From Prorocentrum cordatum (taxonomy: Eukaryota): 64,000 bases of DNA. Where the stretch lies: positions 1 to 64,000 of the forward strand of contig CAUYUJ010000126.1 of NCBI GenBank assembly GCA_963575745.1. Direction: 5' to 3'. Shown piece after piece: positions 9,367-63,124 of this stretch (its first letter is position 1; each line of letters opens with the position of its first letter). The notes under the pieces are model-generated. The model ran no database searches and was not told where the DNA came from. It was given only the letters and a program-made list of their open reading frames with translations. Position numbers and translations under genes: made by a program.

Positions 9367-9466
9367 NNNNNNNNNNNNNNNNNNNNNNNNNNNNNNNNNN
9401 NNNNNNNNNNNNNNNNNNNNNNNNNNNNNNNNNNNNNNNNNNNNNNNNNNNNNNNNNNNNNNNNNN
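9367..9466. other. Assembly gap (100 N)
   Basis: Run of exactly 100 N. Confidence 1.
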
Positions 9467-13909: not shown

Positions 13910-13930
13910 CTTGAGCGAAAAGGCCACGGG
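13910..13930 (-). other. Relict dinoflagellate spliced leader
   Basis: Minus strand CCCGTGGCCTTTTCGCTCAAG vs DCCGTAGCCATTTTGGCTCAAG, ~80 nt upstream of the ATG at 13832 and in the same orientation. Confidence 0.72.
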
Positions 13931-28396: not shown

Positions 28397-29596
28397 ATGG
28401 CGTACAGAGCGCAAGTCCTGACCTCGGGTGCTCCTGACCTCGGGTGCTCCTCGAGCCCGCGTCCGGCACTGTCGCCACACGCTGGACCTCAGGCGAAGCG
28501 TCTGAAGCAGGAAAGAGAACGCACTGGCAAGGGATCCGTCTCTGAGTCCCCCTCTGTCAGTTCCCGAAGTTTTGGCGTACAGAGCGCACGTCCTGGTTGC
28601 GACGGGCTTCTGCCGACGTCGCCTCCCCAGGCTCAGTCGCAACATGCTGGACAGCCACGTGCTGGAAGAAGTTTAAGTTCTGATCTTGGGTGCTTCTCGA
28701 GCCCGAGCCAGGCGCAGTCGCCACGTGCTGGACCTCCGTCGAAGCGACCGAAGCAGGAGGAGGAGCTCGACTTTGCCGATCTTTGCGACACGAGCGCTCC
28801 AGACTCAGATTCCACCAAGCTCAATGTATGCACCATCAATGTCACGAGCATTACCAAGGCCAGGCTGATCACCATCCTGGAGACTCTGCCCGTATCAACC
28901 GCGACTGTGTTATGCCTCCAGGAGATACGGCACCACGAAATTCGACCACGCTGGATTTTTCAAAACGCTCTGAGATTCGGGTGGAGCATTGCCTGCTCAG
29001 ACCCACCACCGACACAAGCACGTGGGACAGTTCGACAAGGAGGATGTGCTATACTTTGGCGCCGCTTCCTGGGCAAGATTACCGTCCTCCGCCACAAAGG
29101 CCTCGGCCATCGTATGGTCGGGATACGCAGTGCTGCCGCTACGTTCCTGTCTGTCTACGGCCCTGTGGACGCGGACAGAGGATGGTTCCAACACGCCTTT
29201 GAATACTTCTCATCTTTGGGACACATGGGCCACCCAGTCTACGTGATTGGCGATCTCAATTGGCGCCCTCTTTACTCGGCCGTGACCCCGCGGTGGCACA
29301 TGAGGACGGTGCGACTGGGCACAGAGACCTCCACTACGGCAGCAGGCACTTGTCCAACGAGAGCCTTGCTGTGGGGAGAAGGAGCAGCTCCAGAGCAGAC
29401 TACGACGCACTTGTCACCTGGCACTCCTCATCATGCTCTGGTGGGGTACGTGCTTAACATCACACATGTCAATCCAACGCATACCCGTCTGAAGCGCACA
29501 GCCTCTTATACACCAGAGCGCGCCTCCAACGACGGGGAGGAAGCGTTGCTTCAAGAATTACTTGACCAAGAGGTGGGCCCGCCCCGCGGTACTTGA
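28397..29596 (+). CDS. AP-type (EEP) endonuclease of the nested LINE
   Basis: NVTS, LQE, GG, SVYGP, GDLN motifs in the expected order. The C-terminal catalytic motifs are degenerate (PTR, HH). Confidence 0.82.
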   Translation: MAYRAQVLTSGAPDLGCSSSPRPALSPHAGPQAKRLKQERERTGKGSVSESPSVSSRSFGVQSARPGCDGLLPTSPPQAQSQHAGQPRAGRSLSSDLGCFSSPSQAQSPRAGPPSKRPKQEEELDFADLCDTSAPDSDSTKLNVCTINVTSITKARLITILETLPVSTATVLCLQEIRHHEIRPRWIFQNALRFGWSIACSDPPPTQARGTVRQGGCAILWRRFLGKITVLRHKGLGHRMVGIRSAAATFLSVYGPVDADRGWFQHAFEYFSSLGHMGHPVYVIGDLNWRPLYSAVTPRWHMRTVRLGTETSTTAAGTCPTRALLWGEGAAPEQTTTHLSPGTPHHALVGYVLNITHVNPTHTRLKRTASYTPERASNDGEEALLQELLDQEVGPPRGT

Positions 29597-32500
29597 ATGA
29601 CGCCACTGACCCACCTCTGGTGGAGCGCTGGCACTACTGGCACGGGAGGGCGGAAAAGGCAATGCTTTTGGCTGTTGGACGAGGGGTGCTCGCAATTGGA
29701 TGTGAAGCTGAACGAGATAAAGGTTCGCAGCCAACTTCACGCCCGACCTCCCATTCGCCGGCTCACAGACCCGACGAGACCATCGCACTGCGTCGCCTTC
29801 GTCGTCTGCATCGGCGTTTCGCAGAACACTTACGCCAGGGCACTCCAGGTACCGCTACGCTGGAGCCGAAACACTACACTCAGTTGGCTGCTGCGGCTTT
29901 CGACGGGCTGGTTCGGGTCACGGCAGTTGGCATACCCACATACTCGGACGCGCTGGACTGGCTCTCGCAGGGAATCACCGTCGAGCAGGCTCAGATACAG
30001 AAGAGGACCTCAGCACAGTGGCGACAGCGTTTTGCGAGCTGGAGCAACGAAGTGTGGAAAGCGGCTGCTCCTCTCTTCAAGGGTGGCCAACCAGCACCAG
30101 CCCATGCAGCAGCAGATATGTGCGAGCAGTGGGCCAAGCGTTGGAAGACAGAGAACTACGACAACAGGGGCTATGTGGCCGCCTGGAGGCAACATGCCTC
30201 CGCCGTGGCCCTCCCGAAGTCCACATACCCTCAGGACTGGAGCATAGTCCAGTCCAGAGGCTTGCTACAGGGCGACAGCACGACTCCATGTACGCTCATA
30301 TCGACGCTCGTGCCAGGTACCGACGTCTCAAGGTCATGCTTTCATGGACGACAGAAGCTTGGTTGCTCAGAACACCGACGACCTCGACGCTGACTTGTTG
30401 ATGACCCAACAGTTTGATACGTCCATCGGCTACTGCGAGAACCAGAGCAAGAGGCAGCGCTGGAGTACAGACGACCCTGTTCCTGTTCGGGTGGAACACC
30501 TCGGAATACTGGCGACGCCGACAGACCACACCGTCCCCATACTTCCGAAAAGGGGGGGTCTAGAGACCGCGATATCGGTGCTGGGGGCCATTCCTGGCAG
30601 CCATCAAGTACGCCTCCGACTGGCGTGCGCATACGTGAGGCCCTTGTGGGCATGGGCTCTGCCCGTTGCGACGCCACCTCCGCGACGCTTTGCCATGCTC
30701 CTGAGCCGATCGTTGTGGGGGACGAGCTCGAGTTGGCGGTGCTTTGGCCGCTACCGGGCGCAAAATATCCGACTACACCCAGCGCACTCGGCTGCGATTC
30801 TGGGTTTTCAGAAGCTGATAGATGAGCGACTTGTCTGGAGTGATTTCTTGGACACGACGCTCTCTGTGTATGCTCGGGTACTGGGCCTTCTCTTTATCCG
30901 ATACTCGCCCAGCCAGGGCGCAGTGCTACAAGTTGACTCGCACGACAATTCAGGATCAGAGATGCGATTGAGATGATTGTGGGTGACAACTGGCAGTTCA
31001 CTACAAATAGTAAGGCTGCCCAGCACGCCCTGAGAAGTATTGCGCGCACCCGCTGTCTCCAGCAAGTGGTGCGCACGCGTCATGACGCAGGGGAGGTCGA
31101 TGATGTCGATGTCCACGCGTCCTCAAGCAAGACAGACATGAAATGGTTCAGTTCCCTGGGTGAGGAAGACCGCACGCTGCTGGCGGTTTTCAGATCGGGG
31201 GCGGTAACTTCAGAGATACGCAGACGCACGGGAGCACCATGTAAGCACTGCGGGGCTTTGAACCCAAGTTTTCGCCGCGCTTTTGCCGAGTGTCCGCGCC
31301 ATGCTGGACGGCGACGGCAGCTGGAAGACCGTTACTCATTACCCTCGTCTTTCTGGACCGGTGCGCCGCGGGTTACGAGCAATAGTGGTTGGATTACGCT
31401 TTCACAACATGATTGTGCTACAGTACGTGCGATGATGCTGACGGCGAGCTGTGCCCTCGGACTCAGTATTCTTCAAAAAGGAAAGGGAGATCTGCTCACC
31501 GATGCGACGCCCATCCTAAGGGTGAGGCGACCACTTGCATGGCAGGCGCAATAAGTTATCAAGTATGGAATTACTCCTTAAGTGACAAAATATTTCATTT
31601 CAACTTCTCTTTTATGGGCGGCCGGTCATCGCCGCGACTTTCGTGGACGACCTCGGGCACGTCCTCTTTGCGCGTCTCCCCGCCCACCTGGACGTCGCGA
31701 TTGCGCAACTCCTGCACATCCTCAACACCGCATTCGGGCAGTACCACTTGACCACCAACTGGGCAAAGGGCAAGACAAAGTGCCTCTTGAGGTATCGCGG
31801 GACCGGCACGACGCGCGCCCGCGAGGCCCGGCGCCGCGGCAGTGGGGAGCTCGCCATTTGGGCTCCCGAGGCCCAGAAATGGCTGCAGGTGGTGGCTGCC
31901 TACCACATTTGGCACGATGCTGCGCGCGACGGGCGAGGCCTATGCTAACGCGCTCCGGCGCACACAGATGGCTATGAGCGCGTGCTTGCCGATCGCGCGC
32001 ACAGTGTTCAGCAGCGCGCTGATCCCAGAGCGGCACAAGCTCAGCTTCCTGAGGTCCCTCGTGCTGTCGCGCTTGCACTTCGGCCTCCACATCGCATGCC
32101 TTCCAGTGGCGCACCTGTGCCGTCTGAATGCGGTGTACGTGCGCGGGCTCCTGCGCATTGCAGGCGATTGCCGGTTCGGCCCAGACGCGCAGTGGTCTGA
32201 CCGCGTCGTGCGCGAGCGGCTGAAAGCGGCATCGATTGACAGCCTACTCATGACCATCTGGCTGCGCTACCTGCAGCGCCTGGTGCTCCTGAGCCCCTCG
32301 GACTTGGTAGCATTGCTGCAGTTCCGCCCGAAGGGGCAGCCGCTGCCTTGGGTAAGGCTTCTCGCTGCGGCCTGCGAGGTCCTGCGACGTCGGGGCTTGG
32401 TGCCTCCGGCCATGCCTGGGTTTTTCGATTCACCGCTGGGATGGGCCGAACTGTTGGCCGTCCGCGAGAAGTGGGGCGACATCGTGGGTAGCGCTCACTT

Positions 32501-33321
32501 CTGCGATTCTTGCCTGGACCGCGACTGCATGGCGTCCTCGGCCACGCCTCCCACAATGAAATGCCGGATGTGTAGCGCCCGTTCCGCCTCCGCGAGCGCG
32601 CCCGCGCGGGCCATGGGCGCATCGCGCACAGGATGGCCGCTAAGGCCAAGTGCCACCTCTCCACGGCACGGTCTGCCCGTGCTGCAAGGTGCACTTCCGG
32701 CAGAAGATCCGGCTGCTGGCGCACTGGTCGGACTCCCGGCGTCCGCGATGTTTTTATTCCCCGCAACGACCACGGGCTCATGACAGCGTTCGCCGGTGTA
32801 ACAGCTCTGGCGCGACAGAAGTGCTGTAAAACACACTACAAACGCGCACAAATGCCATGTTCAAATTTCGTGCGAAACGGCCCAAAATCGAGCACAGCGG
32901 TTCGGGTCCGAAACGCTGTTTTACGAGTGCGACGCATTGTTGGACTTGGGTGAGGGCGCATACTGCTCCCGTGACCGCTGACCAGCAAGCGCAGGTGGAC
33001 GAAGAGCTCCGATCCGCCCGACGCGCTGGACAGCGCGCCGGAAGGACTCACGCCTTATGCCACCCTGCCGGCGAGGAGGGCCGATGGACGTGCCGTCCAG
33101 CGCCTCGGCTGACAGTAGCCACACGCCCTGCCATACGTTTTGCCCGTAGCGACCTGTGCTGCCTGACACTCAGCTTGCGCCGTCGGCACTGCTCGATCTC
33201 CGTCATTATTTGTGTGTTGTACAATGTTCCCATCGCTCTTGAGACTAATATCCCTTGCTATATGTATATATATATATATGTATATATATAGATATACATA
33301 TATATATATATGTATATATGT

Positions 33322-44161: not shown

Positions 44162-47100
44162 CGCTCCTCTGGGGCTCCCCGCTCCCGCTGGGGGTCGTGC
44201 AGGGGCTCGCCTCGCGCCGCCGTCGGCTGCCGTCGGCCGCCGTCGGCCGCCGTCGGCCGCCGTCGCCGTCGTTGTCGTCGTCGTCGTCGTCGTCGTCATC
44301 GTCGTCGTGGGCGTCGTCGTCGTCATTGGCGTCGTCGTCGTCGTCGTGGGCGTTCGTCGTCGTCGTCGTGGGCGTTCGTCGCCGCCGCCGTCGTCGTCGT
44401 GGGCGTCGTCACCGCCGCCGCCGTCGCCATCGCCGGCGACGTTGTTGACACTGCCGTCGCCCTCCTCCTCCTCGTCCTTGTCCTCCTCCTCCTCCTCCTC
44501 CTCCTCCTCTTCCTCCTCTCGTCCTCCTCTCGTCCTCCTCCTCCTCCTCGTCCTCGTCCTCCTCCTCTGCCTCCTCCTCCTCCTCCTCCTCCTCCTCCTC
44601 CTCCTCCTCCCATGTTCCTTGTAGCTAATTTCCCGTGTCGCACCCGAAAACGTGTCGGTAGGGCGGGCAAGGCATTTCGCCTGAAACGTCCTCACCCCTT
44701 ACGGCCGTGAAGCAAGTTCGCAACTGCTACAAAGCTGGGGCACAAGTGGTTTTCAACCTGGGGTTCCTGCCTGGGCACCTCGCAGGGAGGACGTGTCGTT
44801 TTCAAACATTGGTTGTCGCTTCAGTGCCGCACAAATTCGTCATAAAAGCGTTCAACACTTACTAGGATGGAGCACGTATAATTGTCAGAATGGGATTATC
44901 GCCATAATGCCTCGCAGGTTGTCATTGAAAGCTTGCAGCAATTCCAAGGATGCACAGGTCGTTTTCAACATGGGGCTCTGGTTTGAGCGCTCTTGATCCA
45001 AACACCACAAGCTTCAATTCACGTAGCAGTTGCATGGATGGAGGTCGGTTCCTTTCCAACATGGGGTTCTCGCTTGACACTTCCTCGATGCCCATGACCA
45101 GAAGTGTAGCTTGGTGAAACCATTATCCGGACGGAAGCGATTCTTTTCCCCAGGCGGAGATTTCGCTGGACACCTCGTTAGACTGTATGATCCGACCGTT
45201 TCGCACCCCTGGGCGCTAGAAGGACGCAAGGCAATTCTTTCTCAGAGCGGGGCACTCGCCTGAGCGGCAAGCCCACAGGGTGCGGGTCCTTCATGGGGTC
45301 GGTGCTTGTAGTGAAGAGGTAGGCCCTCCAACTTCCTCCTCCCTCCTGAGGAGGCCCAGGCGAGCGCGCGTCGAAGGGACGCCCCCCCAAGAGAAAAGCC
45401 GGGAGTGGCACGGCGCTCGCACGGCCGCAGAGCCGCCGCGGGACAGCCCCCCCGAAGCGAGGGAGGACCCCGAAGACACCATCCTCGCGGAGAAGGGCAC
45501 CGGCGCAGCGTCGAGGAAACTGCAGAAGAGGAGGGAGTCCCTCCTCTTCTGCAGGGGCAGCGGCAGGAGGGGACTGGCAGAAGGTGGGGAAACAGCGACC
45601 TGGAATCGGCGATACAGCAGCGAGAGATCGGCGATTGGGCCCCCCCAGGATGCATCCGCACGTTCCCGGGCAGGCCGGGGCCATCGGGCCCCCATCGGCG
45701 ACCAATGGGCGATTGGGGGTCGACGCGCACCCCCATATTGGAGGCCCAGACATGGGCATCAACACCAACACAGGGGGTTGCCTCCAAATATGGGGAAGGT
45801 GATCCTAGATTTCGGTGTTGGTGGCAATATTTCGGTCGCCTTGGAAGCCAGAATATTACAAACCATCAGATCGGGACCCTCTTCCCTCGGTGGAGGCACG
45901 CCGCCGAGATTGGTGTTGGTGTCAACCTTTAGGCCTGCGACCATATGCCGATTCCAGTCTACAAGGGCTCCCAACTTTGCGCTTCGCGCGGCGCGAAGCG
46001 CGAAGTGCGAATAACTTCGCGCTCTCGCGCCGCCTCCCAGGGGAGAAGAGGAGGACGAGGAGGGATCGGAGCCAAACCGCGAAGCGCGCATGACTTCACG
46101 CCCTCGAGGGCGCGGGCAGCTTACACGCCAGCGCCGGTGAAGGCGAGCCCATATTTCTTCGCCGCTCAAGTAGCACGCGCGACTTGTCGCACAGAAGCTG
46201 CGCTCCCGGGGCAACGCCCGGCATGGAGCCCAGCGTCGGGCCGCGGCTGGCTCCAGCACAGCAGCGGCAGCCCGCGCGCCGAGCCGACACCTCGCGGCCG
46301 ACTCTCGTGGCACCGGTCTGCCTCGGCGATCCTCGGATCGAGGGCGGGCGTGGGCAGGACTGGGTTTCGTGGGAGCTGGTTTAATGATGGGTACTGGGGG
46401 ACGCCCCACCCCCCCGCCCCGTTCCACCAACCGGATTTGCCGTCACCCTGAAAAAACACCAGCTGCGGCAGACCTGGTTTAGTGATTCTGACTAGTATGA
46501 ATGTGTATATATATACACATTTATATATATATATATATGTATATATGGGCTCCGGGGTCCTACTACTAATCTGGCCCCCTTACCTTGGGTTCTGGCTATA
46601 CCCGACTAGGAACAAGGAAACGAGGCACCACCACCACCAACACTCGGGGGCGCGCAAACACGGATTTGCGATCCGTGGATTTGGCGCGCGGTCGGCAAAT
46701 CCATGGATCGGGGGAGGTGCCCTCCCCAAAATGCTGCCAGCGCCGCCTCGCTCGGCGGCGGAACTCCGCGATCTCCTAGGGAAACTGGACCCGTCGCTAA
46801 TCCACGCCCCCTTGATCCATGCTTGCGATCGCCTGAAACACCACCAGGCACCGCTGGGACGTCCATTTCCCGTGCATTTGTCGGTTTCGTGCGATTTTTC
46901 TTGCTCGATGGTCCAGGATGGTCCTCGATGGTTCTCGCCGAGAAAAAATGCACACGTCCGAGCGACGCCAGGACCACCAGGTACCTGGAGCGGGAAGAGC
47001 CAGGGAGGTTCCGCTGTCGGTATGGTCCCCCCTCTCGCTCGAGACGTCCCCTACCCCCAGCTCCGCTGCGGCAGTGTGGGCCTCCCCGCTGGAGGTGGCC

Positions 47101-47175
47101 AGGAGGAGGAGGAGGATGAGATCGAGGATGAGGATGTGAGGATGAGGAGGATGAGGATGAGGATGGGAAGGATGC

Positions 47176-47207
<32 letters not shown>

Positions 47208-47655
47208 CTGACTCTGATGGTGATGGTGATGATGTTTGTGCTTATGTTCATGCTTATGCGGATGCTGATGATGTTGATGATGATGATGCTGATGCTGATG
47301 ATAATGCAGATGCTGATGCTGCTGATGATGATGATGATAATGATGGTGAAGATGGTGATGATGTTGATGATGCTGATGATGAGAATGAGGATGGAAATGA
47401 AGATGAAGATGAGGATGGGGACTAGGATGATGCTGATGATGATGATGATAAGGATGTTGCTGCTGCTGCTGATGATGAGGAGGAGGAGAAGGAGGATCGC
47501 ACGCCACCGAGGGGGGGGGGAAGAGAAAAAATCCGACAGTCAGCTGAAACAAAACGCCCGAGGGGGGCCCATCGGAGTGGACCTTTTTGTCACCCTGACA
47601 GGAAGGCCAAAGACCTGTCAGGGGCCAGCGACAAGGCCCCCCAGGGCAACAACAG

Positions 47656-50600
47656 CTAGCCGTCTTCAAACGCCAAGGCTGCGGCAACCCTTTGCTTTTC
47701 CCGCAGCCTGGCCCCAAGCACTCGGGCTTCAGTTTCATTCAAACCGAACGCCTGCAGACAGTCTGCCGAGCAGATGGGGTCAGGTACAAATCCAGGGACC
47801 ACCGCACTTCGCTGGCCCTTTCGCTGGACCCCTGGGCCGCCGTCCAAACCCCCAAAGACCTCCCGAACCCGCTCCCCAGGCGACTTCCAGGGGCCAAGCT
47901 TAAAGGCGCGATTGGGATGTTTCGACCTTAAAACAGCGCGGGTGTTTTTGCGGCCAGGGTCGATCAGACTCGCTTGGGCCCCAGGGCAGACCGACTTGAG
48001 GCCTCTAGCTCCGACCGAGACCGTCGCGTACCCTCCACACGTGGAGCAAAAAAATATTGGAGCGAGATCCTCACCGTGCAGCGGGAACTCCAACAGCTGG
48101 TGGCCGCCCTGTTTCCAGGGGGCCTGGTGAGCACCCCTGGCCAGGACGGCCAGGTCGGGGCCCAGGGGCACCTCAGGCAGGTCCTGGGAGGGGTCCGCTG
48201 GGGCAGGAGGGGGGGCAGCAGCAGCAGCAGATCGTCCCTCCGCCGCCTCCCTCCTCCTGAGCTCCTCCAGGTCCTCCTCCAGGCCTTCGCCGCCCTCGAA
48301 CGAAATGAGGGTGAACCCCTGGGCGCCCACATTATCAAACGCGCCTAGGTCGGAATAATGAACCTCGGCCCTGGTAATGAAAGAGGTGACCTGACGGGCC
48401 ATAAACAGCATGCCTTTGACCACTAGCATATCCTGAGGGTCTTGCCTGCTGAGATCGGCGCCTTGCTTGGCCAAACGGTCGGCGGCGTCGTTGCCCGTTT
48501 TTTTTTTTCAAACAGGCTGATCTTACCTTCCCGAACGTCATCCATGCTCGAATGGGCCTTGACCTTGCAGCAGCTCACCCCAGACAAATCGTTTTTAGCA
48601 TACAGCTCCTTCCACAGATGCATACGTGTGTTGGCTGGACTCTCGGCCCAGCTTCTATGGCGACAGCACTCGAGAGTTCCTTTGCAGTCAGAGTAAAGCG
48701 TGAACGTGCCAGTTAAAAAACTCGTGGCCATGAAAACTGCAAAATCTTCGCCATCTCGGGCGACTTGGCCAGGCAGAGTGGCTGGCGGGACGGCCCCAAA
48801 CCAGCCCGTGATCCAGCGGCGCTCGCTGTCATAAATGGCAACTCCCCAGCCTGCCGAACGCAAAGCGGGGAACATTCCATCGTGACCCGAGCCGTCACAG
48901 AAGACGTGAGCGTTATCCACCGCCAAACACGCACCCACTCCTTCAGCCCTGAACTCCCACGCTGGGTCCCAGGGCCTCCGCGCGAGCAGCTGACAGGGGT
49001 CAGGGAGGATGCCTCGGGCGAATCGCTCTTGCAGTTCAACTGGGCAGCGAGCAAGACGAGCAGCCGCTGCCTGGAGCTCAGGCGGGAGATGGTCTCGCCG
49101 CCAAGCTGCACGGGCAGGGCACTCGAAGTGCCTGTGAAAAAGGGCGCCTCTGGCCCCGTGACAGATGAGGCAGTCTGCCTCGAGCTGGGGGTCGTGCTGG
49201 TGAAGCCTGTGCTGGCACCAGTGCGAGCCCATAACAAGGCCTCTCAAGGCCCTCTGCTCCCGCACCCCCCAAGCTCCACCCGTGCCCGACTCCGCCCCGT
49301 CATCGTCGTCTTGCTGCCGTCTGCAGCGCAGCCTCTCGTTGAGGGGGCGCCAAAAAAAAATCGCCTAACCAACCCTTGCCTCCGCTGATTTTGCTGGGGC
49401 CTCGGTGATCAGACAGGCGACGTGCAGCGAAGCGAGCACGGCGAGCAACGAAGGCAGGCGAGACAGAGGCCAGGGACCAAACCTGCCCTGAGGCCTCGCA
49501 CAGTGTCCAGGGGTCGGTGAAAGTCAGACCTGCTCGCCCCGCAGTGAGGATTAGAGCCGCCACAGGGTCCTTGACCTGCGCCCATGGGCGGGCTTTTGAC
49601 GCAATGGCCTGCCCTTGGGTAAAAAGAAATCGAAGCACCGAGGGGGACAGGCGATTGTCTCTGAGGATCTGCACATATGTTTTCAGAGCATCGGCTGTGA
49701 CCAAGACCAATGGGTCTCGGGTCCAGCCGCCACGCGCGCACATGGAAGCTAAGTCCAGGGAGCAGCCGCGAGGCAACCGCCCTTCAGCGCGCAGCGCAGC
49801 TACCCTTAGTTGATTAAGTTTGCCGTCAGGGAGCCCTTGGATGTTGGCTCCCCATAGAGCCTTGGCAGAAACTCCAGCCCGAAAAACAAAGCCCGCTGGG
49901 GCTCCAGCGTTTCTGAGGGCCACGATTTTGCCGACCTTGGCTTGGGCGGCGCAGAAACGATCGTGATGTGTGCTTACTCGCCTACGGCTGCCGTCGGTCG
50001 CGTCACCTCCTAGATCCCGATGGACCTGGGCGCGCACCGACTCTGGGAGGCCACAATCGAGGAGGATCCCGTCCGCCACCTCCCCCGAGGAAGACAGGAG
50101 GCCGAGCTTATTACAGGCGATGGGCAGCCCCTTTTTTTTTCTTAGGTCTGCCGTTATCATGCGGAACGCTTGCCCGAGCTCCCTGCGAACTACTTCATTG
50201 CCTCCAACCGCGTGCAGCGAGACATCGTCGATTACATTTTTTTATCCAGACGACTGGGCTGGCCGACGCCGCGCGCCGCAAACAAGCTAAGAGGAGCAAG
50301 CGGGAAAGAGTGGTGGCCCCAGAGCACCCTGCAACTACCGTGCCGTTCGGCACGAGGACTCTGCTGACCGCGCCTTGCCACGAGACCCTACGCGGTGCAC
50401 GATACATCGAACAGTAGCTCCTCAAGAGGGCTTCCGAAAAACCTGCATGCTTGGCGGCTTCTCGCAACTCCTGGTGCGAGATGTGTTCATAGAACTTGCG
50501 CAGATCTATGAAAAGCGTGCAAGAGGCCCAGCCAGGCTGGGAACGGGCATAGGCTGCAAGAGCGTTGTGGACCCAAGCGCTCTTGTCACAGGCTGTGCTG

Positions 50601-53072
50601 GTGCTCATACCCCAAAAGAAACGCTCATCAGCGCGACGCTCCCACTCAGAGCACAGCCTGTGCCTAATTCTGCTCCAGACCCTCGCAAAGAGGGGAAGCA
50701 GCCATATCGGTCGGACTCCTCCCGAAGGCTTGTCGAGAAAAACGATCAGCACTAGCCACATCTGATCCACCCTCGGATTCCTTTCCCAAGCAGTGAGGAT
50801 GGCCGCAAAGGCCTCAACAAGCGGCCGAGGGAGCTGCAACAGGAGCCGCGGGCTGAACGCATCCCAACCCAAAGCCGTGGTCGGGCTGAAAGAAGCCGCC
50901 GCTTCTAGAACCTGTTCAGCAGAGATCGGTTCGAGCGAATCCTCCACCGTCCAGTCAAGGGGATGCTGCTCCCCCTCGCGCTCGGCGCTGGTCCAAATGG
51001 GAATCCACTCCTTGAGGGTCTGCTCTAGAGCGGCCTGGCCTACCAGAATCGAAAGCCGATTATGCGGGAGGTCCTGGTCATCGGCCTCTTCGAAAACTGG
51101 CAGGGGCGGAGGGGCTGGGCCTTTGCTGAACCTGTGAGCGACACGACCACCTCCAGCCACCGACGACTTCGCCCACGACTTCCACTTCTGTCGGCCTTCA
51201 GCCGCCTCCTGCTTCACCCTGCTGACGACCTCCGCTTGGACCGCGTCCACTAGCGGCCCTCTGGTCGCGCTGTCGGCCAGCTGCGTAAAAAAGTTAGCCA
51301 GGGTAAGTCCACGGAGCTGTTCCTGCCCCGCCTCCGCGAACAAAGTTGAGAGGGGCGATGCAATCCTGACCAGCTGAGCCTGAACCTCTGGTTTAGTAGC
51401 TTTTAAAAACTGGATGGACAGGCGGCGCAGCGAAAGCCACTTCTGAGTGAGCAGATTAGAACGCTGGTAGAGCTCTTGGCCCCAAGCTGCTCGCAGAGGG
51501 ACGAGCTGTATCTGACAGCCCTTGTGTCGGCCGAAAAACTTGGGGTCCGTCACACCGTGGACCTCAGCGAGGGCCCTTTCCGCAGAGGAGAACCATCTGG
51601 ACGCAGCGTCCAGAGGATCCAGGCCCAAAAAAATTGGGCCGTCCCAGGATCCCGAAAAAAACCATCTGCATCCTCTCATCATCATCCTGGGGCAGAGGGA
51701 AACGCTTGGGCACAATGCGCTTCCAAACCTTGGCCTGGCCAGCCAGCGCTCGCATGCGGAGGGCCACCGCAGAGTGCGGCCCTACTGGGGTGTCGGCCAC
51801 TCCAGCGCACCAGTCGACGTGGTAGTCCAGGCACCCGCTGATGACGAAAAAGTCGTAGCAGTGGTCGTGACAGGTCGCACCTTCTGGCCGCAGGATGCTG
51901 GCCCCGAGGTGCCCAGTCCACTGGGGCTCCCTGAGCTCTTCAGCGTCAATATTCCAATCACCGCCGATGACGAAAGGGATGTTAGCCTCTGCTACCACCG
52001 CGCTGACCTGCTCCAAGAAATCGAGATTGGCTCCGCTGAGCCCCAAAAGTAGTATGCCCGTATACCGAGACTACCAGCACCTCCACGTTGTAGGCCAAAG
52101 CGACTCTGCAAGCCGCCACGCGCTCGCCGAGGAACCGATGCTGGTATCCTGCTGCGCCAAATTGACTGCGGACCAGCACCGCCGTGCCTGCTGACGATTC
52201 TCTGTCCGTTATCCCTGTGCTGGCCGCTGGCTGAAAAGAAGAAGCGTACCCCGCCTGATGGGCCCAGGCCCTGGGGGCTTGGATCTGATGTTGAAGCAAA
52301 CGGTGCTCTTGGACCAGAACGGCATCATACACAGTGCCCTTGACCAGCTTCGACCATTCCAAAAACTTAAGACCAGTCGACCAAGCGTTCGAGTTGTAGG
52401 TGACCAGAGAGAAATGTGAAAGAGCCTTGCTAACTCCTGGGGGAGGCGGCGGCCAACCGCGAGCAGAGTGGGAGGGGTCGCTCTCGTCGGGGGCTGCATC
52501 CCGCGCATCCGCGGCGCCGACGAGAGGCTGGGCACGACCAAAGGGATCGCCCACCCGCATGTCTGCGGCATTGGTCAAGAGCCCGCTACCCGCGCCTCCC
52601 TTTAGGGTTTGCCGTTGTGGCTCCCCAAGGACGCCAGTGCGCCCCAAAAACGGTGGCCACCGCCTCTGCCCCTTTAGGGTCTGCCCCACGGGCTCCCCAA
52701 GGACACCTTGGTGCCCCGATGCCATCCTTCGCCAATCGTAAGAGTTGTAGGTGACCTGAGAGAAAAGTGAAAGAGCCTTGCTCACTCCTGGGGGAGGCGG
52801 CGGCCAACCGTGAGCAGCGTGGGAGGGGTCGCTCTCGTCGGGGGCTGCATCCCGCGCATCCGCGGCGCCGACGAGAGGCTGGGCACGACCAAAGGGATCG
52901 CCCACCCGCATGTCTGCGGCATTGGTCAAGAGCCCGCTACCCGCGCCTCCCTTTAGGGTTTGCCATTGTGGCTCCCCAAGGACGCCAGTGCGCCCCAAAA
53001 ACGGTGGCCACCGCCTCTGTCCCTTTAGGGTCTGCCCCTCGGGCTCCCCAAGGACACCTTGGTGCCCCGATG
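47656..53072 (-). CDS. LINE ORF2: APE endonuclease, reverse transcriptase, RNase H (broken by frameshifts at homopolymer runs)
   Basis: VTYNSN, VQEH, SAG, SVYG, GGDWN, YDFF, PHSAV; ALGWD, KPSGGVRPI, FIDLRKFYEHI, AGC, NVIDD (~50221-50238); FCDGSG, GWGV, YSDC, KVKAH, ADRLAKQG. Confidence 0.9.
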
Positions 53073-53084
53073 CCATCCTTCGCC
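52391..53084. repeat. 351-bp tandem duplication at the start of ORF2
   Basis: GAGTTGTAGGTGACC at 52391 and 52742, with near-identical units. The peptide RRMASGHQG...VTYNS appears twice in frame. Confidence 0.93.
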
Positions 53085-53095
53085 GAGAAGCCCCG

Positions 53096-54247
53096 TCAAA
53101 GACTGGACTCTGTGTTGTGGGCGCGAGCTGCTTCGACCAAGGCTTTGGCCTTCTCGGGGTCCCGCTGCTTTGGGTGTGGTTCGCCTGGGCCCCCAGCGGC
53201 TGAAGGGGCAGCACCAGCGCCAGCAGCGCCTGCAGAGCTCGCTGACCCAGTGTTGGCCGTCGCACCTGCCGCCTCCGCTGGTGCTGCTTCTGGTGTCGGC
53301 GTCGCGCCTCCACTTGAGTCCTTGCGGGCCCTCTTGCTGGCGAGCCGCTGACGCATGTCTCTAGCTTCTTGCCTGAGCTTCTGGATGTGCTCAGCGCTTG
53401 GCCCGATAGCTGCCAAGATGGCCTGCTGGATCTGTGACGCCATGTTGGCTTTGAGGTTTGTCCAGCTTTCCCTGTCCGCATCGTCGAGCTCCAGGTCCGA
53501 AAGGTCGAGCACGGACCCATCCACGATCTCAACGGTGTCGATGCCCCCTTCGCCCGTGAGCAACTCCGACAAGTTGATCTGGGAGCCTGCTGGCTTCGCG
53601 GCTGCCTCCTCTGGTGGGCAAGGTCGGGGCTCGCCTGCGCGATGAAGCTCAACCCGTAGCTCATCCTTCCACGCCTGCTCCGCGTCGTAGGCCTCGACGG
53701 CTGCCTCCGCTGTGGCGGCCCGCAGCTCCTGAAGCCACCGTGCCGCCTCGTCCTCCTTCGCCACACACTCTCGTAGCCACTTCTGGGCCCTGCGGCAGGC
53801 CACCCCTTTTGCTGAGACAGTCTCCTCCAGCAGGGGCTCTCTTGGAGGGGCCTTCGTCTGTTGCGGTGGCGCCAAGGCCTGCTGGAGCGCCGCCATCTCC
53901 GCAGTCGCCGCGTCCCCGACCCTGGCCTTGAGCTCGTCCAAGAGGGCGTCAGTGGTCGGCGGCGAGCCTCGCTGCGGAGGAGTGGAGGTGCGGGGCGGCG
54001 CCAATCTCCTAGGCGGCGCTCCCCACTGCGGCCGCGTGCCTGGCGGGTAGGGCGGCGACCCCGCACCCGCAGGCGGCTGGCCGCCTGCTCCATGCGGCGG
54101 GGAGGCCCACACACCCTGGGCGACTCTCCAAGGCATCTCGTTCGGGAGGAGCGTGGCCTGGCAGGTGTAGCAGAACGTGTTTGTCTTGAAGTTCCATCTG
54201 TACCTGCACGCCGAGCAAGTGAGATATCCTTTAACATCCTTCGGCAT
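53096..54247 (-). CDS. LINE ORF1 (383 aa): N-terminal C4 zinc finger and predicted coiled coil
   Basis: Intact ATG-started ORF with CSACRYRWNFKTNTFCYTC (RanBP2-like spacing), immediately upstream of ORF2. Confidence 0.82.
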   Translation of the reverse strand: MPKDVKGYLTCSACRYRWNFKTNTFCYTCQATLLPNEMPWRVAQGVWASPPHGAGGQPPAGAGSPPYPPGTRPQWGAPPRRLAPPRTSTPPQRGSPPTTDALLDELKARVGDAATAEMAALQQALAPPQQTKAPPREPLLEETVSAKGVACRRAQKWLRECVAKEDEAARWLQELRAATAEAAVEAYDAEQAWKDELRVELHRAGEPRPCPPEEAAAKPAGSQINLSELLTGEGGIDTVEIVDGSVLDLSDLELDDADRESWTNLKANMASQIQQAILAAIGPSAEHIQKLRQEARDMRQRLASKRARKDSSGGATPTPEAAPAEAAGATANTGSASSAGAAGAGAAPSAAGGPGEPHPKQRDPEKAKALVEAARAHNTESSL

Positions 54248-54387
54248 GGGCTCCTGCAGGAGCTCACTGGAAAGAGAAACGTGCCCGTGCTGGCACAGAG
54301 GTTACTGTATCGCTGGATGTGGCCTGGCTGGTAGTGCCAGGAGAAAGCAGGTGGGGCCGCTGGATCCCCTTGCCAGAATCTCAAGTG

Positions 54388-54407
54388 CTGAGCGAAACCG
54401 CTACGGA
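54388..54407 (-). other. Relict spliced leader directly downstream of the full SL
   Basis: Minus strand TCCGTAGCGGTTTCGCTCAG. Confidence 0.8.
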
Positions 54408-54429
54408 CTTGAGCCAAAATGGCTACGGA
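54408..54429 (-). other. Perfect 22-nt dinoflagellate spliced leader (retro-inserted)
   Basis: The reverse complement of CTTGAGCCAAAATGGCTACGGA is TCCGTAGCCATTTTGGCTCAAG. Confidence 0.97.
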
Positions 54430-54430
54430 C

Positions 54431-55050
54431 GAGGAGGAGGAGAGGAGGAGGAGGAGGAGGAGGAGGAGGAGGAGGATGGGAGGAGGAGGAGGAGGAGGAG
54501 GAGGAGGAGGAGGAGGAGGAGGAGGGGGAGGAGGGAGGGAGAGGAGAGAGAGAGGAGAGAGAGAGAGGAGGAGGAGGAGGAGGAGGAGGAGGATAAGGAG
54601 GCAGGGAGGAGGAGGAAGAGAAGGGGGGGAGGAGTAGAAGGGGATGGAGGAGGAGGAAAAGGAGGAGAGGAGGAGGAGGAGGAGGATGAGGAGGAGGAGG
54701 AGGAGGAGGAGGAGCAGGAGGAGGAGGAGGAGACGAGGGAGGAGGAGAAGGAGGAGGAGGAGAAGGAGGAGGAGGAAGAGGAGGGGGAGGCAGAGGCGGA
54801 GGAGATGGAGTAGGCGATGGAGGAGGAGGAGGAGAAGGAGGAGGAGGAGGAGGAGGAGGAAGGATACGAATAAGCATAACAATACTTTCAGTGCTAATAC
54901 GAATACTAACAATACTATTAATACTAATACTGATGATGATACGAATGATGATACTCTTAGTACTTATAATAAAGTTGCTAATGCTACTAATAATAATAGT
55001 ACTAATAATAAAGATGATGATGATGATGATACTACTACTACTACTAATAA

Positions 55051-59979: not shown

Positions 59980-60145
59980 GTTGCGGCTGAGGGTTTCACG
60001 GCAGCCCTTAGCCACGCCAGCGTGATAGGCGCCAGTCCGTGTAGCTTTGCATTCTTGGGGTTTCGGAGGTGCAGGTTGGCTACGAAGGGGCGGAGTGTGC
60101 TCGCCATCTACCTGCGCGTGGTGCTCATTCTGATCGGTTGGCCCT

Positions 60146-63124
60146 GTGCTGTGTATATCAGGTCCGATCGGTTCTGGCAGAGTGGTTTTGATCATCGGGA
60201 CGATGTCGAGGTGTTCTTCGGGTCCACAGTTCAGGTTAGACGAGAGGGAGCGGGGTCCTCTTCGATGCCTGCCGTGCCCGGCCTACGGGGCCGTGTGCGA
60301 CGCCCGCAACGGTTTCGGCTGGGAGGTGCCGTTCCAGGAGGCGGAGGTGAGGGGGCTGAGGGCGGCGTGGCGGAGGCTGGAGCGAGCCGTTGCGAGCATC
60401 AGATGCTTGGCGAAGGGGCGCGCGAAGGTTTTCGACGAGCTGGGCCCGAAGCGCGACTTCGTCTCTTGGAGGAAGGCGACGCCGATCCAGATCTCGATCG
60501 TGAAGGAGCTGTGGCGGAGGCTCGCTCTGAGGGCGAGCTGGGGGAGCATCACCGATGGCAGGGCGGTTCTCAGCCGTCTGGGTGGTGGGCTGAGCGGCTA
60601 CGAGAGGACGGCGGTGAAGGAGCGACGCAAGGTGGCGCTCAAGAAGGGGGACCTCTGCGACATGGTGGCGGACGAGGTGTCGGTCCCAGCCGCAGGGACG
60701 AGGGGGCTCAAGGTGACGGACCTGTCGCCGACGGTCCTCCCCTACTTGCTGGACGTGGAGGGGCTGATGCTGAGGACGGCCGACGAGGTCGACTGGGCCG
60801 AGTACGAGTCCACATCGAGCTTCACCGACGCCGGTTGGAAGCGGGAGTCGAACAGGCTGAAGTTGGGGCTGAAGATGTGGCAGTCGGGGATGTTGGTGTT
60901 TACCAAGGCGGTGAAGGAGAAGGTAGGGATCTTCACGGTGGTCAAGTCAATGGTGGAGGGTTCCTCGACCGAGGTGGCGAAGTCAAGGCTGGCGTGGGGC
61001 TGCAGACGTCTCAACTTGCGCTTCAGGAGGCCACCCTGGACAGGGTTGGGGTCTCCGAGTGCGCTGGCGGCGGTGGATCTCTCGGGAGAAGTGCTGAGGG
61101 ACCAGCAGCTGCTGAGATTCTCGGGGGATATCCCCGACTGGTTCTACCGCCTGAGGTGGCCCAAGGCACTGGCGGAATACTGCGCGCTGGACTCGCTGAC
61201 ACCGCAGGAGCTGTGGGAACATGCGCAACGGGAGGGGGTGAGCATCCCGACGCCAGACGACGACGACGTGGGACTGGGGCCATCGCCCCCGTGATGGGAC
61301 ATTCGTGGGCCGCATTATTGGCGCACTCGTGTCTGACCGATTCGCTCCAAGGGATCAGCCCTTTCAAGTCGGCTCAGCTGGCCTACGGGATGCAGGTGCC
61401 ATCGTTTGTGAACTACGACCTGCTCCTGCTCCTGTACATCGACGACTACGTTGGCCTCCGGCTCTACGAGGACGGGGAGGAGCAGGTGGAGCTCGACAAG
61501 GAGGCGGTGAAGAAGGTCTTGACGGAGAATGGGCTGGAGGTGCACAAGGAGACGTGGGGGCCTGGGCTGGAGAAGGGGCTGGGTCTTTCCATCGTGGGGA
61601 GGCCGTGTCGGGTGGTCGTGCACGAGGACAGGATGAAGGAGATCGTCCTGGCCGCCGAGGCCCTGGTGCGTGCTGGTGCCGCGCGACCATCGACGGTGGC
61701 ATCCTTGCTCGGGCTCTGGACGTGGGTCCTGATGATTGCGCGCCCTGGTTTTGCGATACTGGACGGGGTCTACAGGTCGTTGAACGAGGTGAGGGACCTG
61801 GAGGACGAGGTCCGCGACATCCCGAGGGGCGTCCTGGCGGAGCTCATGTGTCTGGGTTCGCTCTCGGTGCACTTCGAGTCGGATCTGGAAACGGAGTGGT
61901 TCGGGAGGGCCTATATGACGGACGCCTCGGAGTTCGGGTACGGTGCGGCGCAGACCCTCACCGCGAGCGATGAGTGCAGGGACGAGGCCGCCAAGGGAGA
62001 GCTCCAGACGTGGAGGGTGCGCGCCGACGAGACGCACCAGGACATCGAGGAGGAGGTCGAGCAGGAAGGGGATGAGGACGACGAGCAGATAGCTCCCGAT
62101 CTCGGACGCCTTGGAGTGCTCGAACTGGCGGCTGGAGTTGCGCGTGTCACGCCCACCATCCGAGCTGTGACATCCCCCTGGTGTGTGTCCAGCAACTTCG
62201 CGAAGGGGGCCGAGTACGATATCTACGACACCAGGGATCTTGAGAGGCTGTTCCCCAGATTGAGGCGAAGATGGTAGTGGTTTGTTCATCTGACGCCGTC
62301 GAGGTCGGATCTCTGTGCCGGGGGATGGCGAAGCTGTGTGGGTCTCTGGGGCTGTCTTTCGTGGTGGTCCTGCTGGAGTTTTCCGACGAGGACTCCTGGG
62401 GCGAGCTGGTGGACAAGCCAGAGGCTTTCAGCTTCGAGGTGAAGATGGGGGACGTGAAGACCCGCATCGTTACCAACGAGGAGGTGTTCTACAGACTGGC
62501 CAGCAGCGAGGACGGGTTGAAGGGTCTACCCGAGGCCGAGTGGACGTTTTTTCGACTACGACCCGCAGTTTCTGATCGAATAGGGGCAGGCTTGTCGGAA
62601 GGTGGAGTCAGACTGGGGGCTCGCGACGGCAGGTACGGAGGCGAGGAGAGCGAACGGGATGTTACACGTGGTGAAGGCTCGGGGGCAGGCACTGGCAGCT
62701 GGTCGGTCGTGGACCGGCGAGGCGAGGCGGTTTCTCTTATACCCTGGGAAGTGGGACAAGGAGGAGCACAACAACATCCTCGAGCTGCGCACCATCATGG
62801 GGCTACTCCGACATGCTTCACGATCAACGAAGATGTGGCGAAAACGGATCTTGGTTTTTCAGCGACCCTCTGGTCTCCATGGGCGTCCTGATGAAAGGGA
62901 GGTCGTCGGCAGCAGGGTTACTTCATCTGGCGAGACAGGCAGCCGCGGTGTCGCTTGTCTGTGGCATCAAGCTGGTCCTGCGGTGGGTGGCCTCGGAGGA
63001 CAACATCGCCGATGGCCCGAATCGCGGGCTACCAATGGGGGCAGCAGAGGCGACCAAGGAGGATCACAAGTGGAGGTACACGCCGAAGAGAGTGCGGGCT
63101 TTGTGGCTTCGAAGTTCTGCTTGA
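60146..63124 (+). pseudogene. DIRS-type RT and RNase H (frameshifted)
   Basis: KVGIFTVVK, SRLAWGCRRLN, GDIPDWFYRL, VMGHSWA, LYIDD; RNase H MTDASEFGYG ... HNNILEL ... SD..V..G...KGRSS ... RWVASEDNIAD. Confidence 0.88.
62110..62420 (+). pseudogene. Degenerate C5-methyltransferase-like insert inside RNase H
   Basis: GVLELAAGVARVT...GAEYDI...RLRRRW*WFVHLTPS, then AKLCGSLGLSFVVVLLE. Collinear with the MTase of the first element, but the PC and ENP motifs are lost. Confidence 0.55.

What the first reader, a model, noticed from the sequence alone, without database searches (positions are those of the whole stretch)
54388..54429. A LINE retrotransposon that begins exactly at a spliced leader, with an older relict SL stacked behind it
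Seen: a perfect DinoSL sits flush against the flanking (TCC)n tract and is followed at once by a degenerate SL (TCCGTAGCGGTTTCGCTCAG), a ~140-nt UTR and ORF1. Established: DinoSL is added by trans-splicing, and relict SL stacks mark genes recycled through mRNA. Inference: this LINE copy was reverse-transcribed in full from a trans-spliced RNA, and this happened over at least two generations. The element may therefore lack an internal promoter and instead rely on read-through transcription, using the terminal AG of the previous SL as acceptor to define its 5' end. That would be an SL-dependent retrotransposon life cycle.
Basis: partly seen in the sequence, partly recalled or inferred. Interest (0 to 1): 0.85.

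Follow-up and report, generated by a model that had tools for sequence, protein, structure and literature searches.

The report
Dinoflagellate LINE headed by spliced leaders
A jumping gene (LINE) in a dinoflagellate genome starts exactly with the 22-base tag that this organism splices onto its messenger RNAs, followed by an older decayed copy of the tag, which suggests that the element copies itself from processed messenger RNA.

Summary
On the minus strand a perfect 22-nt DinoSL (54429..54408) lies one G away from a ~430-bp (TCC)n tract. A full-length degenerate SL follows at once (54407..54388), then a 140-nt UTR and a 383-aa ORF1. ORF1 heads a ~6.9-kb APE-endonuclease/RT LINE that ends near 47497.

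This is a family feature. Read-derived contigs from four DNA runs cross the relic-SL junction, in the window's form and in several variant 5'UTR forms. Environmental contigs L010, L011 and L012 carry related LINEs that also begin with SL plus a relic starting TCCGTAGCG. L011 and L012 are again flanked by (TCC)n. L010 has an extra canonical truncated relic.

Best reading (0.8): a 5'-complete retrocopy of a trans-spliced LINE mRNA, from a lineage that went through at least two SL-addition cycles.

The promoterless, read-through, terminal-AG idea is plausible but untested. It fits the non-growing SL+relic architecture, although L010 shows use of the internal AG.

Six literature searches found no description of SL-headed dinoflagellate LINEs. 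A similar suggestion exists for flatworms. I call it a new variant of a known kind, interest about 0.55.

ORF2 has five frame changes, four at A/T homopolymers, so the copy may not be dead.

The parts
54431..54860 (-). 5' flank: degenerate (TCC)n microsatellite on the element's strand. It is a pyrimidine tract directly upstream of the SL.
   Evidence: TRF reports 54427-54860, period 3, 144 copies, 80% matches. Sequence read.
54430..54430 (-). Single G between the microsatellite and the SL. It could be an untemplated or cap-derived base; that is speculation.
   Evidence: Sequence. L011 and L012 have AG at the same place.
54408..54429 (-). Perfect 22-nt DinoSL, the first bases of the element.
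   Evidence: One match in the window and 0 of 100 shuffles with a match. SL sequence as quoted.
54388..54407 (-). Full-length degenerate SL relic (R), TCCGTAGCGGTTTCGCTCAG.
   Evidence: Alignment score 22, reached by 66 of 20,000 shuffles. R-type relics starting TCCGTAGCG occur in L010, L011 and L012 and in variant read-derived contigs.
54248..54387 (-). 140-nt 5'UTR.
   Evidence: Homologous to the L010 5'UTR: global score 32.5 against a shuffle maximum of 9.5. Alignment A2.
53096..54247 (-). ORF1, 383 aa plus stop. It has an N-terminal CxxC...CxxC zinc-finger-like motif followed by a helical or coiled-coil-like region.
   Evidence: Relatives P0001-P0003 have E-values 6e-97 to 6e-45; two are named Prorocentrum cordatum. 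Alignment A1. No Pfam family matched.
52391..53084 (-). 351-bp unit duplicated in tandem between ORF1 and the endonuclease.
   Evidence: Self-blastn gives 353 bp at 96.9% identity. TRF gives 2.0 copies at 97% matches.
51693..52413 (-). ORF2 endonuclease (APE/EEP type). It is read in two frames.
   Evidence: Colinear with P0004 aa 3-244. P0004 passes the Pfam Exo_endo_phos cut-off. The window piece has no direct Pfam hit.
49456..51622 (-). ORF2 reverse transcriptase. It is read in two frames.
   Evidence: Pfam RVT_1 E=1.8e-5, 25 bits, below the 29.6 cut-off. About 40% identity to P0004 aa 271-998. P0004 scores 32.6 bits for RVT_1, above the cut-off.
47656..49271 (-). Post-RT part of ORF2 up to the TAG stop. 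It carries RNase-H-like motifs seen by eye (VFCDGSG, NDAADRLAK).
   Evidence: 43% identity to P0004 aa 1048-1304. Only a faint zf-RVT hint, E=0.13. The RNase H reading is by eye and unconfirmed.
47497..47655 (-). 3'UTR with no A-run. The end of the element is inferred at about 47497.
   Evidence: Sequence. The boundary is inferred from where simple repeats begin.
47101..47496 (-). 3' flank or tail: about six TCC-type triplets, then a (CAT)n-type repeat.
   Evidence: TRF reports 47115-47478, (GATGAT)n on the + strand.

Best explanation
This is a 5'-complete copy, about 6.9 kb (54429 to about 47497, minus strand), of an APE-type LINE from a Prorocentrum-like dinoflagellate.

Its first 22 bases are a DNA-encoded DinoSL. 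The best reading is that the template for target-primed reverse transcription was a mature, SL-trans-spliced LINE mRNA, and that it was copied to its very 5' end.

The second, degenerate SL (R) is an older leader that has become a fixed part of the family's 5'UTR. The lineage has therefore passed through at least two cycles of transcription, SL addition and full-length retrotransposition.

Shown: the structure, the LINE identity, the 5' completeness, the recurrence of SL+R in relatives, and the lack of any conserved sequence upstream of the SL.

Inferred: that the SL came from trans-splicing. This rests on established DinoSL biology and on the retrogene precedent. Also inferred: that the leading SL is renewed in each cycle.
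For: - Perfect SL, found once in the window, with 0 of 100 shuffles matching.
- R starts at the next base.
- The ORF1 start is conserved with relatives.
- ORF2 is colinear with P0004 (EN plus RT above Pfam cut-offs) over aa 3-1304.
- No LTRs and no second copy in the window.
- Contigs from runs of 3 studies cross the R-SL junction. The loose ends show other 5'UTR variants joined to the same SL+R start. Sequences upstream of the SL are diverse or microsatellite.
- Of 12 metagenome loci carrying an SL followed by a full-length SL, 3 are LINEs with the same layout (L010, L011, L012). Support: tblastn to the endonuclease at 1e-5 and 2e-10 for L010, Pfam E=3.8e-5, and the L011 tail against endonuclease N-termini at E=4.5e-7 to 1e-3.
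- All three have a relic beginning TCCGTAGCG. Position 9 was not part of the search pattern.
- L010 carries SL remnant, CCATTTTGGCTCAAG, then R. This is the canonical product of trans-splicing into a DNA-encoded SL, as defined in PMC12014239.
- The window and L010 UTRs are homologous.
Against: - No RNA evidence was available, so trans-splicing of this LINE's RNA is not directly shown.
- The metagenome loci were found with a pattern that requires SL positions 10-22 plus relic positions 1-8. Conservation of those 21 bases is by construction, and the share of family copies that carry an SL is unknown.
- Two unbiased searches with ORF1 found no loci.
- L011 and L012 may be one locus seen in two samples.
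- R is a full-length SL, not the canonical truncated relict. An acceptor upstream of the old SL must be assumed for its origin.
- There is no poly(A) tail at the 3' end.
- X1 may be the assembly's own data.
Confidence: 0.8

Rival explanations
1. Inherited SL look-alike. One or two ancient SL captures became part of the 5'UTR. Since then the element has been transcribed from its own internal promoter starting at base 1, as L1Tc/ingi elements use Pr77, with no trans-splicing in each cycle. The leading SL stays perfect through selection, for example as a mimic of a host mRNA 5' end.
For: - The SL+R architecture does not grow with each generation in the window copy, L011 or L012. An internal promoter would explain that.
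- Song et al. propose that DinoSL relicts retain a TTT(T/G) promoter-like motif (PMC5585692 abstract passage).
- Trypanosomatid LINEs solve the same problem with an internal promoter that gives unspliced transcripts (abstracts of PMC1874656 and PMC8190864, seen in the listing only).
Against: - The leading SL is perfect in the window. In variant contigs it shows 0-2 differences over 32-37 nt, while the adjacent R differs between variants.
- L010 shows a fresh SL spliced into a DNA-encoded SL.
- No promoter was tested.
Confidence: 0.12
2. An SL-gene-specific LINE (like SLACS, CRE, CZAR or NeSL; names recalled) that is inserted in an SL RNA gene, so that the SL is target DNA.
For: The SL abuts the element's 5' end.
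Against: - Upstream of the SL is a 430-bp (TCC)n tract, not an SL gene.
- The SL exon is complete and is followed by another SL, not by an intron.
- There is no second SL piece anywhere else in the window, including the 3' flank.
- The endonuclease is APE type.
Confidence: 0.02
3. An artefact or one-off chimera: an assembly join, or a reverse-transcriptase template switch onto another SL-bearing RNA at the 5' end of a single copy.
For: The SL is highly repeated: k-mer depth 9465 in the SL bin against 26-34 for the LINE in X1. Such repeats invite mis-joins.
Against: - A 754-nt X1 contig crosses the UTR-R-SL region with 2 differences.
- Paralogous variants in X1 and X4 cross it too.
- The same architecture appears in L010, L011 and L012.
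Confidence: 0.03

Closest known systems
DinoSL-tagged retrogenes ('recycled cDNAs'; Slamovits and Keeling 2008 as summarised in PMC6050394; Song et al. 2017, PMC5585692; PMC12014239)
   Same: A DNA-encoded DinoSL at the 5' end of a retrocopy. Stacked leaders record repeated rounds of retroposition.
   Different: Here the retrocopied mRNA is that of the retrotransposon itself. The relic is a full-length SL, whereas the canonical DinoRL lacks the first seven bases (PMC12014239). SL plus relic is conserved across diverged LINE lineages. There is no poly(A) tail.
Partial SL sequences in LTR and LINE loci of parasitic flatworms (PMC12582326, one passage read)
   Same: [quoted passage not shown]
   Different: That was a side remark about 597 discarded loci with partial leaders. 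It gives no element anatomy, no stacked leaders and no family-level conservation. The phylum and the SL system are different.
Trypanosomatid L1Tc/ingi LINEs with the Pr77 internal promoter (PMC1874656, PMC8190864; abstracts in the search listing only)
   Same: LINEs that live in a genome where host mRNAs obtain their 5' ends by SL trans-splicing.
   Different: Pr77 drives unspliced transcripts. The element here carries the SL itself at its 5' end, which suggests the opposite solution.
SL-gene-specific LINEs SLACS, CRE, CZAR and NeSL (recalled; SLACS is only named in PMC10161547)
   Same: The SL sequence is adjacent to a LINE.
   Different: In those elements the SL is the interrupted target gene and the endonuclease is of the restriction-like type. 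Here the SL is complete, doubled, flanked by a microsatellite, and the endonuclease is APE type.
Microsatellite-targeting LINEs of insects
   Same: The element lies between triplet microsatellites. The 5' junctions of the window copy, L011 and L012 are all in (TCC)n.
   Different: Target specificity is not shown here. No empty site and no target-site duplication could be defined.

Membership tests
Non-LTR retrotransposon (LINE), APE type | Reverse transcriptase domain | tested here: met
   RVT_1 E=1.8e-5, though at 25 bits it is below the 29.6 cut-off. 40% identity over about 700 aa to P0004, which scores 32.6 bits.
Non-LTR retrotransposon (LINE), APE type | APE/EEP endonuclease on the N-terminal side of the RT in ORF2 | tested here: met
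   Colinear with P0004 aa 3-244. P0004 scores 28.6 bits for Exo_endo_phos against a 24.5 cut-off. The window piece alone has no Pfam hit.
Non-LTR retrotransposon (LINE), APE type | No long terminal repeats | tested here: met
   Self-blastn of 47000-54429 against the window gives only the self hit and the internal 353-bp duplication.
Non-LTR retrotransposon (LINE), APE type | 3' tail and target-site duplication | tested here: inconclusive
   There is no A-run. Both flanks are triplet microsatellites, so no duplication can be defined.
Non-LTR retrotransposon (LINE), APE type | Assignment to a named LINE clade | not testable with these tools
   No LINE reference library was on hand. PDB phmmer with P0004 gave 0 hits. 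The only hint is zf-RVT at E=0.13.
DinoSL-tagged retrocopy | DNA-encoded DinoSL at the 5' end of the copy | tested here: met
   22 of 22 bases at 54429..54408.
DinoSL-tagged retrocopy | Canonical truncated relict CCATTTTGGCTCAAG behind the leader | tested here: not met
   The window relic keeps the first seven bases. The canonical form is present in relative L010. Definition taken from PMC12014239.
DinoSL-tagged retrocopy | The SL was added by trans-splicing to this RNA | not testable with these tools
   No RNA run was listed and no raw reads were available.
SL-gene-specific LINE (SLACS/CRE/NeSL type) | Insertion inside an SL RNA gene, with SL gene halves on both flanks | tested here: not met
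   Only one SL site in the window. The flanks are microsatellites.
   The non-growing SL+R architecture fits this. L010 shows use of the internal AG instead. No RNA data.

The most novel reading that the evidence does not exclude
A whole group of dinoflagellate LINEs has no promoter of its own and lives on the host's SL trans-splicing.

Copies are transcribed by read-through. A new capped SL is spliced to the AG that ends the DNA-encoded SL, so that the SL+relic 5' terminus is rebuilt exactly in each cycle. The cDNA then runs to the cap.

The elements insert into (TCC)n microsatellites, which place a long pyrimidine tract in front of the acceptor. In L011 and L012 the junction reads (TCC)n-CCAG, followed directly by the SL. 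This would explain how full-length SL stacks arise.

The same machinery would be the long-sought source of the DinoSL-tagged retrogenes.
Probability: 0.3. Interest if true: 0.8.

Novelty: new variant of a known kind. Interest (0 to 1): 0.55.

Why it matters
Roughly a fifth to a quarter of the genes surveyed in dinoflagellates are DinoSL-tagged retrocopies. The passages I read say that the reverse transcriptase behind them is unknown (PMC5585692). One review favours LTR elements (PMC6050394). [quoted passage not shown]

A LINE family whose own full-length copies begin with the SL shows that a LINE enzyme can copy SL-capped mRNA to its 5' end. It also gives concrete signatures to look for at retrogenes: the (TCC)n junction, the extra G, and the 3' end type.

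It also offers a natural test of how a retrotransposon defines its 5' end in a genome where promoters are obscure and trans-splicing makes the mRNA 5' ends.

Tried and rejected
- A third, older relic in the UTR. The best SL alignment was at chance level: 1364, 656, 1540 and 1560 of 2000 shuffles reached it for the window, L010, L011 and L012.
- No whole genome is held for this window, so the census of all copies could not be made.
- No earlier scan notes exist.
- No RNA holder was listed among 15 runs. Expression is therefore untested.
- Unbiased ORF1-based locus searches found nothing in metagenome contigs or genome contigs.
- The SL-SL pattern gave 0 hits in viral contigs.
- A 19-mer gave one hit, in a bacterial MAG (L013). 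My own estimate is that a few chance hits are expected in 596 billion bases, so I set it aside.
- The records behind L006 and L010 could not be searched.
- ORF1 homology between the window family and L011 or L002 is not supported: hhalign probabilities 4.3% and 8.4%.
- The window-versus-L011 UTR alignment is not significant: score 9.0 against a shuffle maximum of 12.
- Pfam gave nothing for ORF1 or for the window endonuclease pieces.
- PDB gave no hit for P0004.
- I could not tell whether neighbouring genes are co-oriented. The flanks are repeats and other retroelement-like ORFs.
PMC6616646, on SL genes and relicts, was not read.
- Supplements were not opened. Tables of retrogene annotations in PMC5585692 and PMC12014239 might list RT or LINE genes that carry relicts.

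Full report
**1. The observation**

The finding lies on the minus strand. Reading 5' to 3':
- a long degenerate (TCC)n tract, which TRF places at 54427-54860, period 3, 144 copies;
- a single G (54430);
- TCCGTAGCCATTTTGGCTCAAG (54429..54408);
- TCCGTAGCGGTTTCGCTCAG (54407..54388);
- 140 nt of UTR;
- an ATG at 54247 that opens a 383-aa ORF.

The first 22-mer is identical to the published DinoSL, DCCGTAGCCATTTTGGCTCAAG, as quoted in passages of PMC8045281 and PMC5585692. At up to 3 mismatches it occurs once in the 64-kb window. None of 100 shuffles produced a match. At up to 6 ungapped mismatches there are 4 hits: this one and three 6-mismatch hits. That is within the 0-5 hits seen in 20 shuffles.

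The second 20-mer aligns to the SL over 20 columns with 16 matches, 3 mismatches and 1 gap. Its score of 22 was reached by 66 of 20,000 shuffles of the 160-nt region. This is modest on its own. It is convincing because the relic begins at the very next base and recurs in relatives (section 3).

One G lies between the SL and the repeat. The relic is a complete SL, not the canonical relict. PMC12014239 describes the canonical relict as lacking the first seven bases (CCATTTTGGCTCAAG).

**2. What the element is**

ORF1 (54247..53099):
- It has three relatives at E=6e-97 to 6e-45 and 49-52% identity. Two are named 'unnamed protein product [Prorocentrum cordatum]'.
- The alignment shows a conserved N-terminal CxxC...CxxC motif and the same start methionine. 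The copy is therefore 5'-complete at the protein level.
- Pfam has no family for it.

Downstream of ORF1:
- A 351-bp unit is duplicated in tandem.
- A broken ORF2 then follows. Only one of its six pieces (one of the seven scanned with ORF1) gave a Pfam hit: RVT_1, E=1.8e-5, 25 bits, below the cut-off.
- The RT piece finds P0004, a 1604-aa protein, at E=2e-96 and 40% identity.
- P0004 passes the Pfam cut-offs for both Exo_endo_phos and RVT_1.
- The window is colinear with P0004 aa 3-1304 in frames -2, -3, -1, -2, -3.
- A further piece runs to a TAG stop at 47656.
- The post-RT part shows RNase-H-like motifs by eye only. Pfam gave just a faint zf-RVT hint.

There are no LTRs and no second copy in the window. 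The 3'UTR has no A-run. It runs into about six TCC-type triplets and then a (CAT)n-type repeat.

So this is an APE-type LINE of about 6.9 kb. I could not assign it to a named clade.

Four of the five ORF2 frame changes fall at A or T homopolymers of 7-11 nt. They may be slippage mutations or homopolymer-length errors of the assembly. I could not check this, because the single read-laying run went to the 5' end. The copy should therefore not be called dead with confidence.

**3. One copy or a family trait?**

No genome is held for this window, so I used public reads and contigs.

*Read-derived contigs.* Eleven of 15 listed runs hold part of the stretch. The top four hold 0.76, 0.47, 0.42 and 0.41 of its words. 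I laid these four on 53100-54445. They come from three studies and are all contigs of DNA runs.
- An X1 contig of 754 nt spans 53672-54425 with 2 differences. The UTR-relic-SL join therefore exists in reads. X1 may be the assembly's own source.
- Other contigs in X1 and X4 cross the same join with 6-8 differences. These are paralogous copies.
- Loose ends at 54393, 54395 and 54397 show at least three other 5'UTR variants attached to the same SL plus relic start. Two of them share a CTGGCAAGGG-like motif with the window.
- Sequences upstream of the SL (loose ends at 54428-54442) are either diverse or (TCC)n-like.
- In X1, 34 contigs share SL-G-(CTC)4 and then diverge.
- The SL bin has k-mer depth 9465, against 26-34 for the LINE.

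*Searches not conditioned on the SL.* ORF1-based locus searches found nothing in metagenome or prokaryote collections.

*Pattern search.* I searched for the 3' half of the SL followed by the first 8 bases of a full-length SL. It gave 12 metagenome loci and none in viral contigs. Three of the 12 are LINEs with the same layout.
- L010 has a zinc-finger ORF, a coiled-coil ORF and an endonuclease. Support comes from tblastn at 1e-5 and 2e-10 and Pfam E=3.8e-5 at 24.0 bits against a 24.5 cut-off.
- L011 and L012 have a zinc-finger plus coiled-coil ORF1.
- The last 70 aa of L011 match endonuclease N-termini, at E=4.5e-7 to L010 and 3.4e-4 to the window.
- In all three the relic starts TCCGTAGCG. The G at position 9 was not part of the pattern.
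- L011 and L012 have unique DNA or microsatellite, then (TCC)n, then CCAG, then the SL.
- L010 starts inside a leader and reads ...TCAAG, CCATTTTGGCTCAAG, relic. That is a canonical truncated relict on top of the full-length one.
- The window and L010 5'UTRs are homologous (score 32.5, shuffle maximum 9.5). Window versus L011 is not significant.
- ORF1 proteins of these lineages are too diverged for hhalign to link them.

*Caveats.* The pattern search is conditioned on the SL-SL join, so it says nothing about how many family copies lack it. L011 and L012 may be one locus.

**4. How it most likely works**

*Established knowledge* (passages in PMC5585692, PMC6050394 and PMC12014239):
- Dinoflagellate nuclear mRNAs receive the 22-nt DinoSL by trans-splicing.
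- Retrocopies of such mRNAs carry the leader in DNA.
- Stacks of leaders record repeated rounds.

Applied here, the template of this copy was a trans-spliced LINE mRNA that was reverse-transcribed to its 5' end. The relic is a leader from an earlier round that is now part of the family's UTR. I put this at 0.8.

*The full-length relic.* It needs an acceptor just upstream of an integrated SL. The L011/L012 junction, a pyrimidine microsatellite followed by CAG and then the SL, is the kind of site that could do this. That is inference.

*The non-growing architecture.* SL+relic without accumulating truncated relicts, in the window copy and in L011/L012, has two explanations.
- Evidence for renewal: the leading SL is perfect in the window and shows 0-2 differences over 32-37 nt in variant contigs, while the adjacent relic varies between variants.
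- L010 proves only that the internal AG is sometimes used.
- None of this was tested on RNA. No RNA holder was listed.

**5. Rivals**

- An SL-gene-specific insertion is contradicted by the flanks, by the complete and doubled SL, by the absence of any other SL piece and by the APE-type endonuclease.
- An assembly chimera or a one-off template switch is contradicted by the crossing contigs and by the relatives.
- Chance is excluded for the SL.
- The inherited-mimic model remains open at about 0.12.

**6. Comparison with what is known**

I ran six full-text searches and read passages in 15 papers. None describes a dinoflagellate LINE that begins with DinoSL.
- Song et al. report 'RNA-dependent DNA replication' enriched among relict-bearing genes and say the RT source is unknown.
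- A review favours LTR elements.
- The Prorocentrum cordatum genome paper says nothing on LINE 5' ends in the passages found.
- The nearest statement is a remark on flatworms: partial SLs in 597 LTR and LINE loci may come from trans-spliced retrotransposon transcripts.
- Trypanosomatid L1Tc/ingi use an internal promoter that gives unspliced RNA (abstracts only).

Supplements were not opened, and subscription-journal papers are outside the library.

**7. Verdict**

- The anatomy is real and is a family trait.
The promoterless, terminal-AG life cycle is a reasonable but untested extension.
- It is an expected corollary of DinoSL biology, so it is not categorically new.
- It is a new variant: a LINE family with a conserved SL plus full-length-relic 5' terminus, possibly targeted to (TCC)n.
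- It bears directly on the open question of which enzyme makes dinoflagellate retrogenes.
- Interest 0.55.

Noticed in passing
window 13910-13930 (-): Probable degenerate DinoSL relict (CCCGTGGCCTTTTCGCTCAAG). It has the best SL alignment score in the window after the real SL (28). By my count from the sequence it lies about 80 nt upstream of an ATG. It may mark an ordinary retrogene.
   Followed up: partly
window 51661, 51633, 50243, 49360, 48508 (-): Four of the five ORF2 frame changes coincide with A or T homopolymers of 7-11 nt in otherwise ~60% GC coding DNA. They could be assembly homopolymer errors, slippage mutations or deliberate slippery sites.
   Followed up: partly
window 52391-53084 (-): A 351-bp unit duplicated in tandem (97% identity) between ORF1 and the endonuclease. 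Its meaning is unknown.
   Followed up: partly
window 28325-32783 (+): A second, unrelated and degraded LINE (Exo_endo_phos E=2.4e-8; ORFs). The + strand has no SL-like sequence within 6 mismatches anywhere in the window. Its 5' end was not defined.
   Followed up: partly
window 59980-62277 (+): A 765-aa ORF with a YIDD-type motif (LLLLYIDDYVGL) that suggests another retroelement reverse transcriptase. No Pfam hit.
   Followed up: no
window 54405-54445, runs X1-X4: The SL bin has k-mer depth 9465 in X1 against 26-34 for the LINE. Thirty-four X1 contigs share SL-G-(CTC)4 and then diverge. An X2 37-mer of that junction has depth 116 against about 5 for the LINE. Many SL-headed loci in this organism may abut (TCC)n.
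   Followed up: partly
L002, L004, L005, L006, L008: A complete or 5'-cut DinoSL followed by a perfect full-length DinoSL occurs in other contigs (L006 and L008 lack the start of the upstream SL; L004 begins inside a leader). So full-length, non-canonical stacks are not confined to this LINE. L008 has (GTA)n upstream. L002 and L006 encode zinc-finger plus coiled-coil ORFs that look like LINE ORF1 by eye but are unconfirmed.
   Followed up: partly
L010 558-560: The zinc-finger part and the coiled-coil part of ORF1 are in one frame, separated by a single stop codon.
   Followed up: no
window 9367-9466: A run of 100 N, which is an assembly gap.
   Followed up: no
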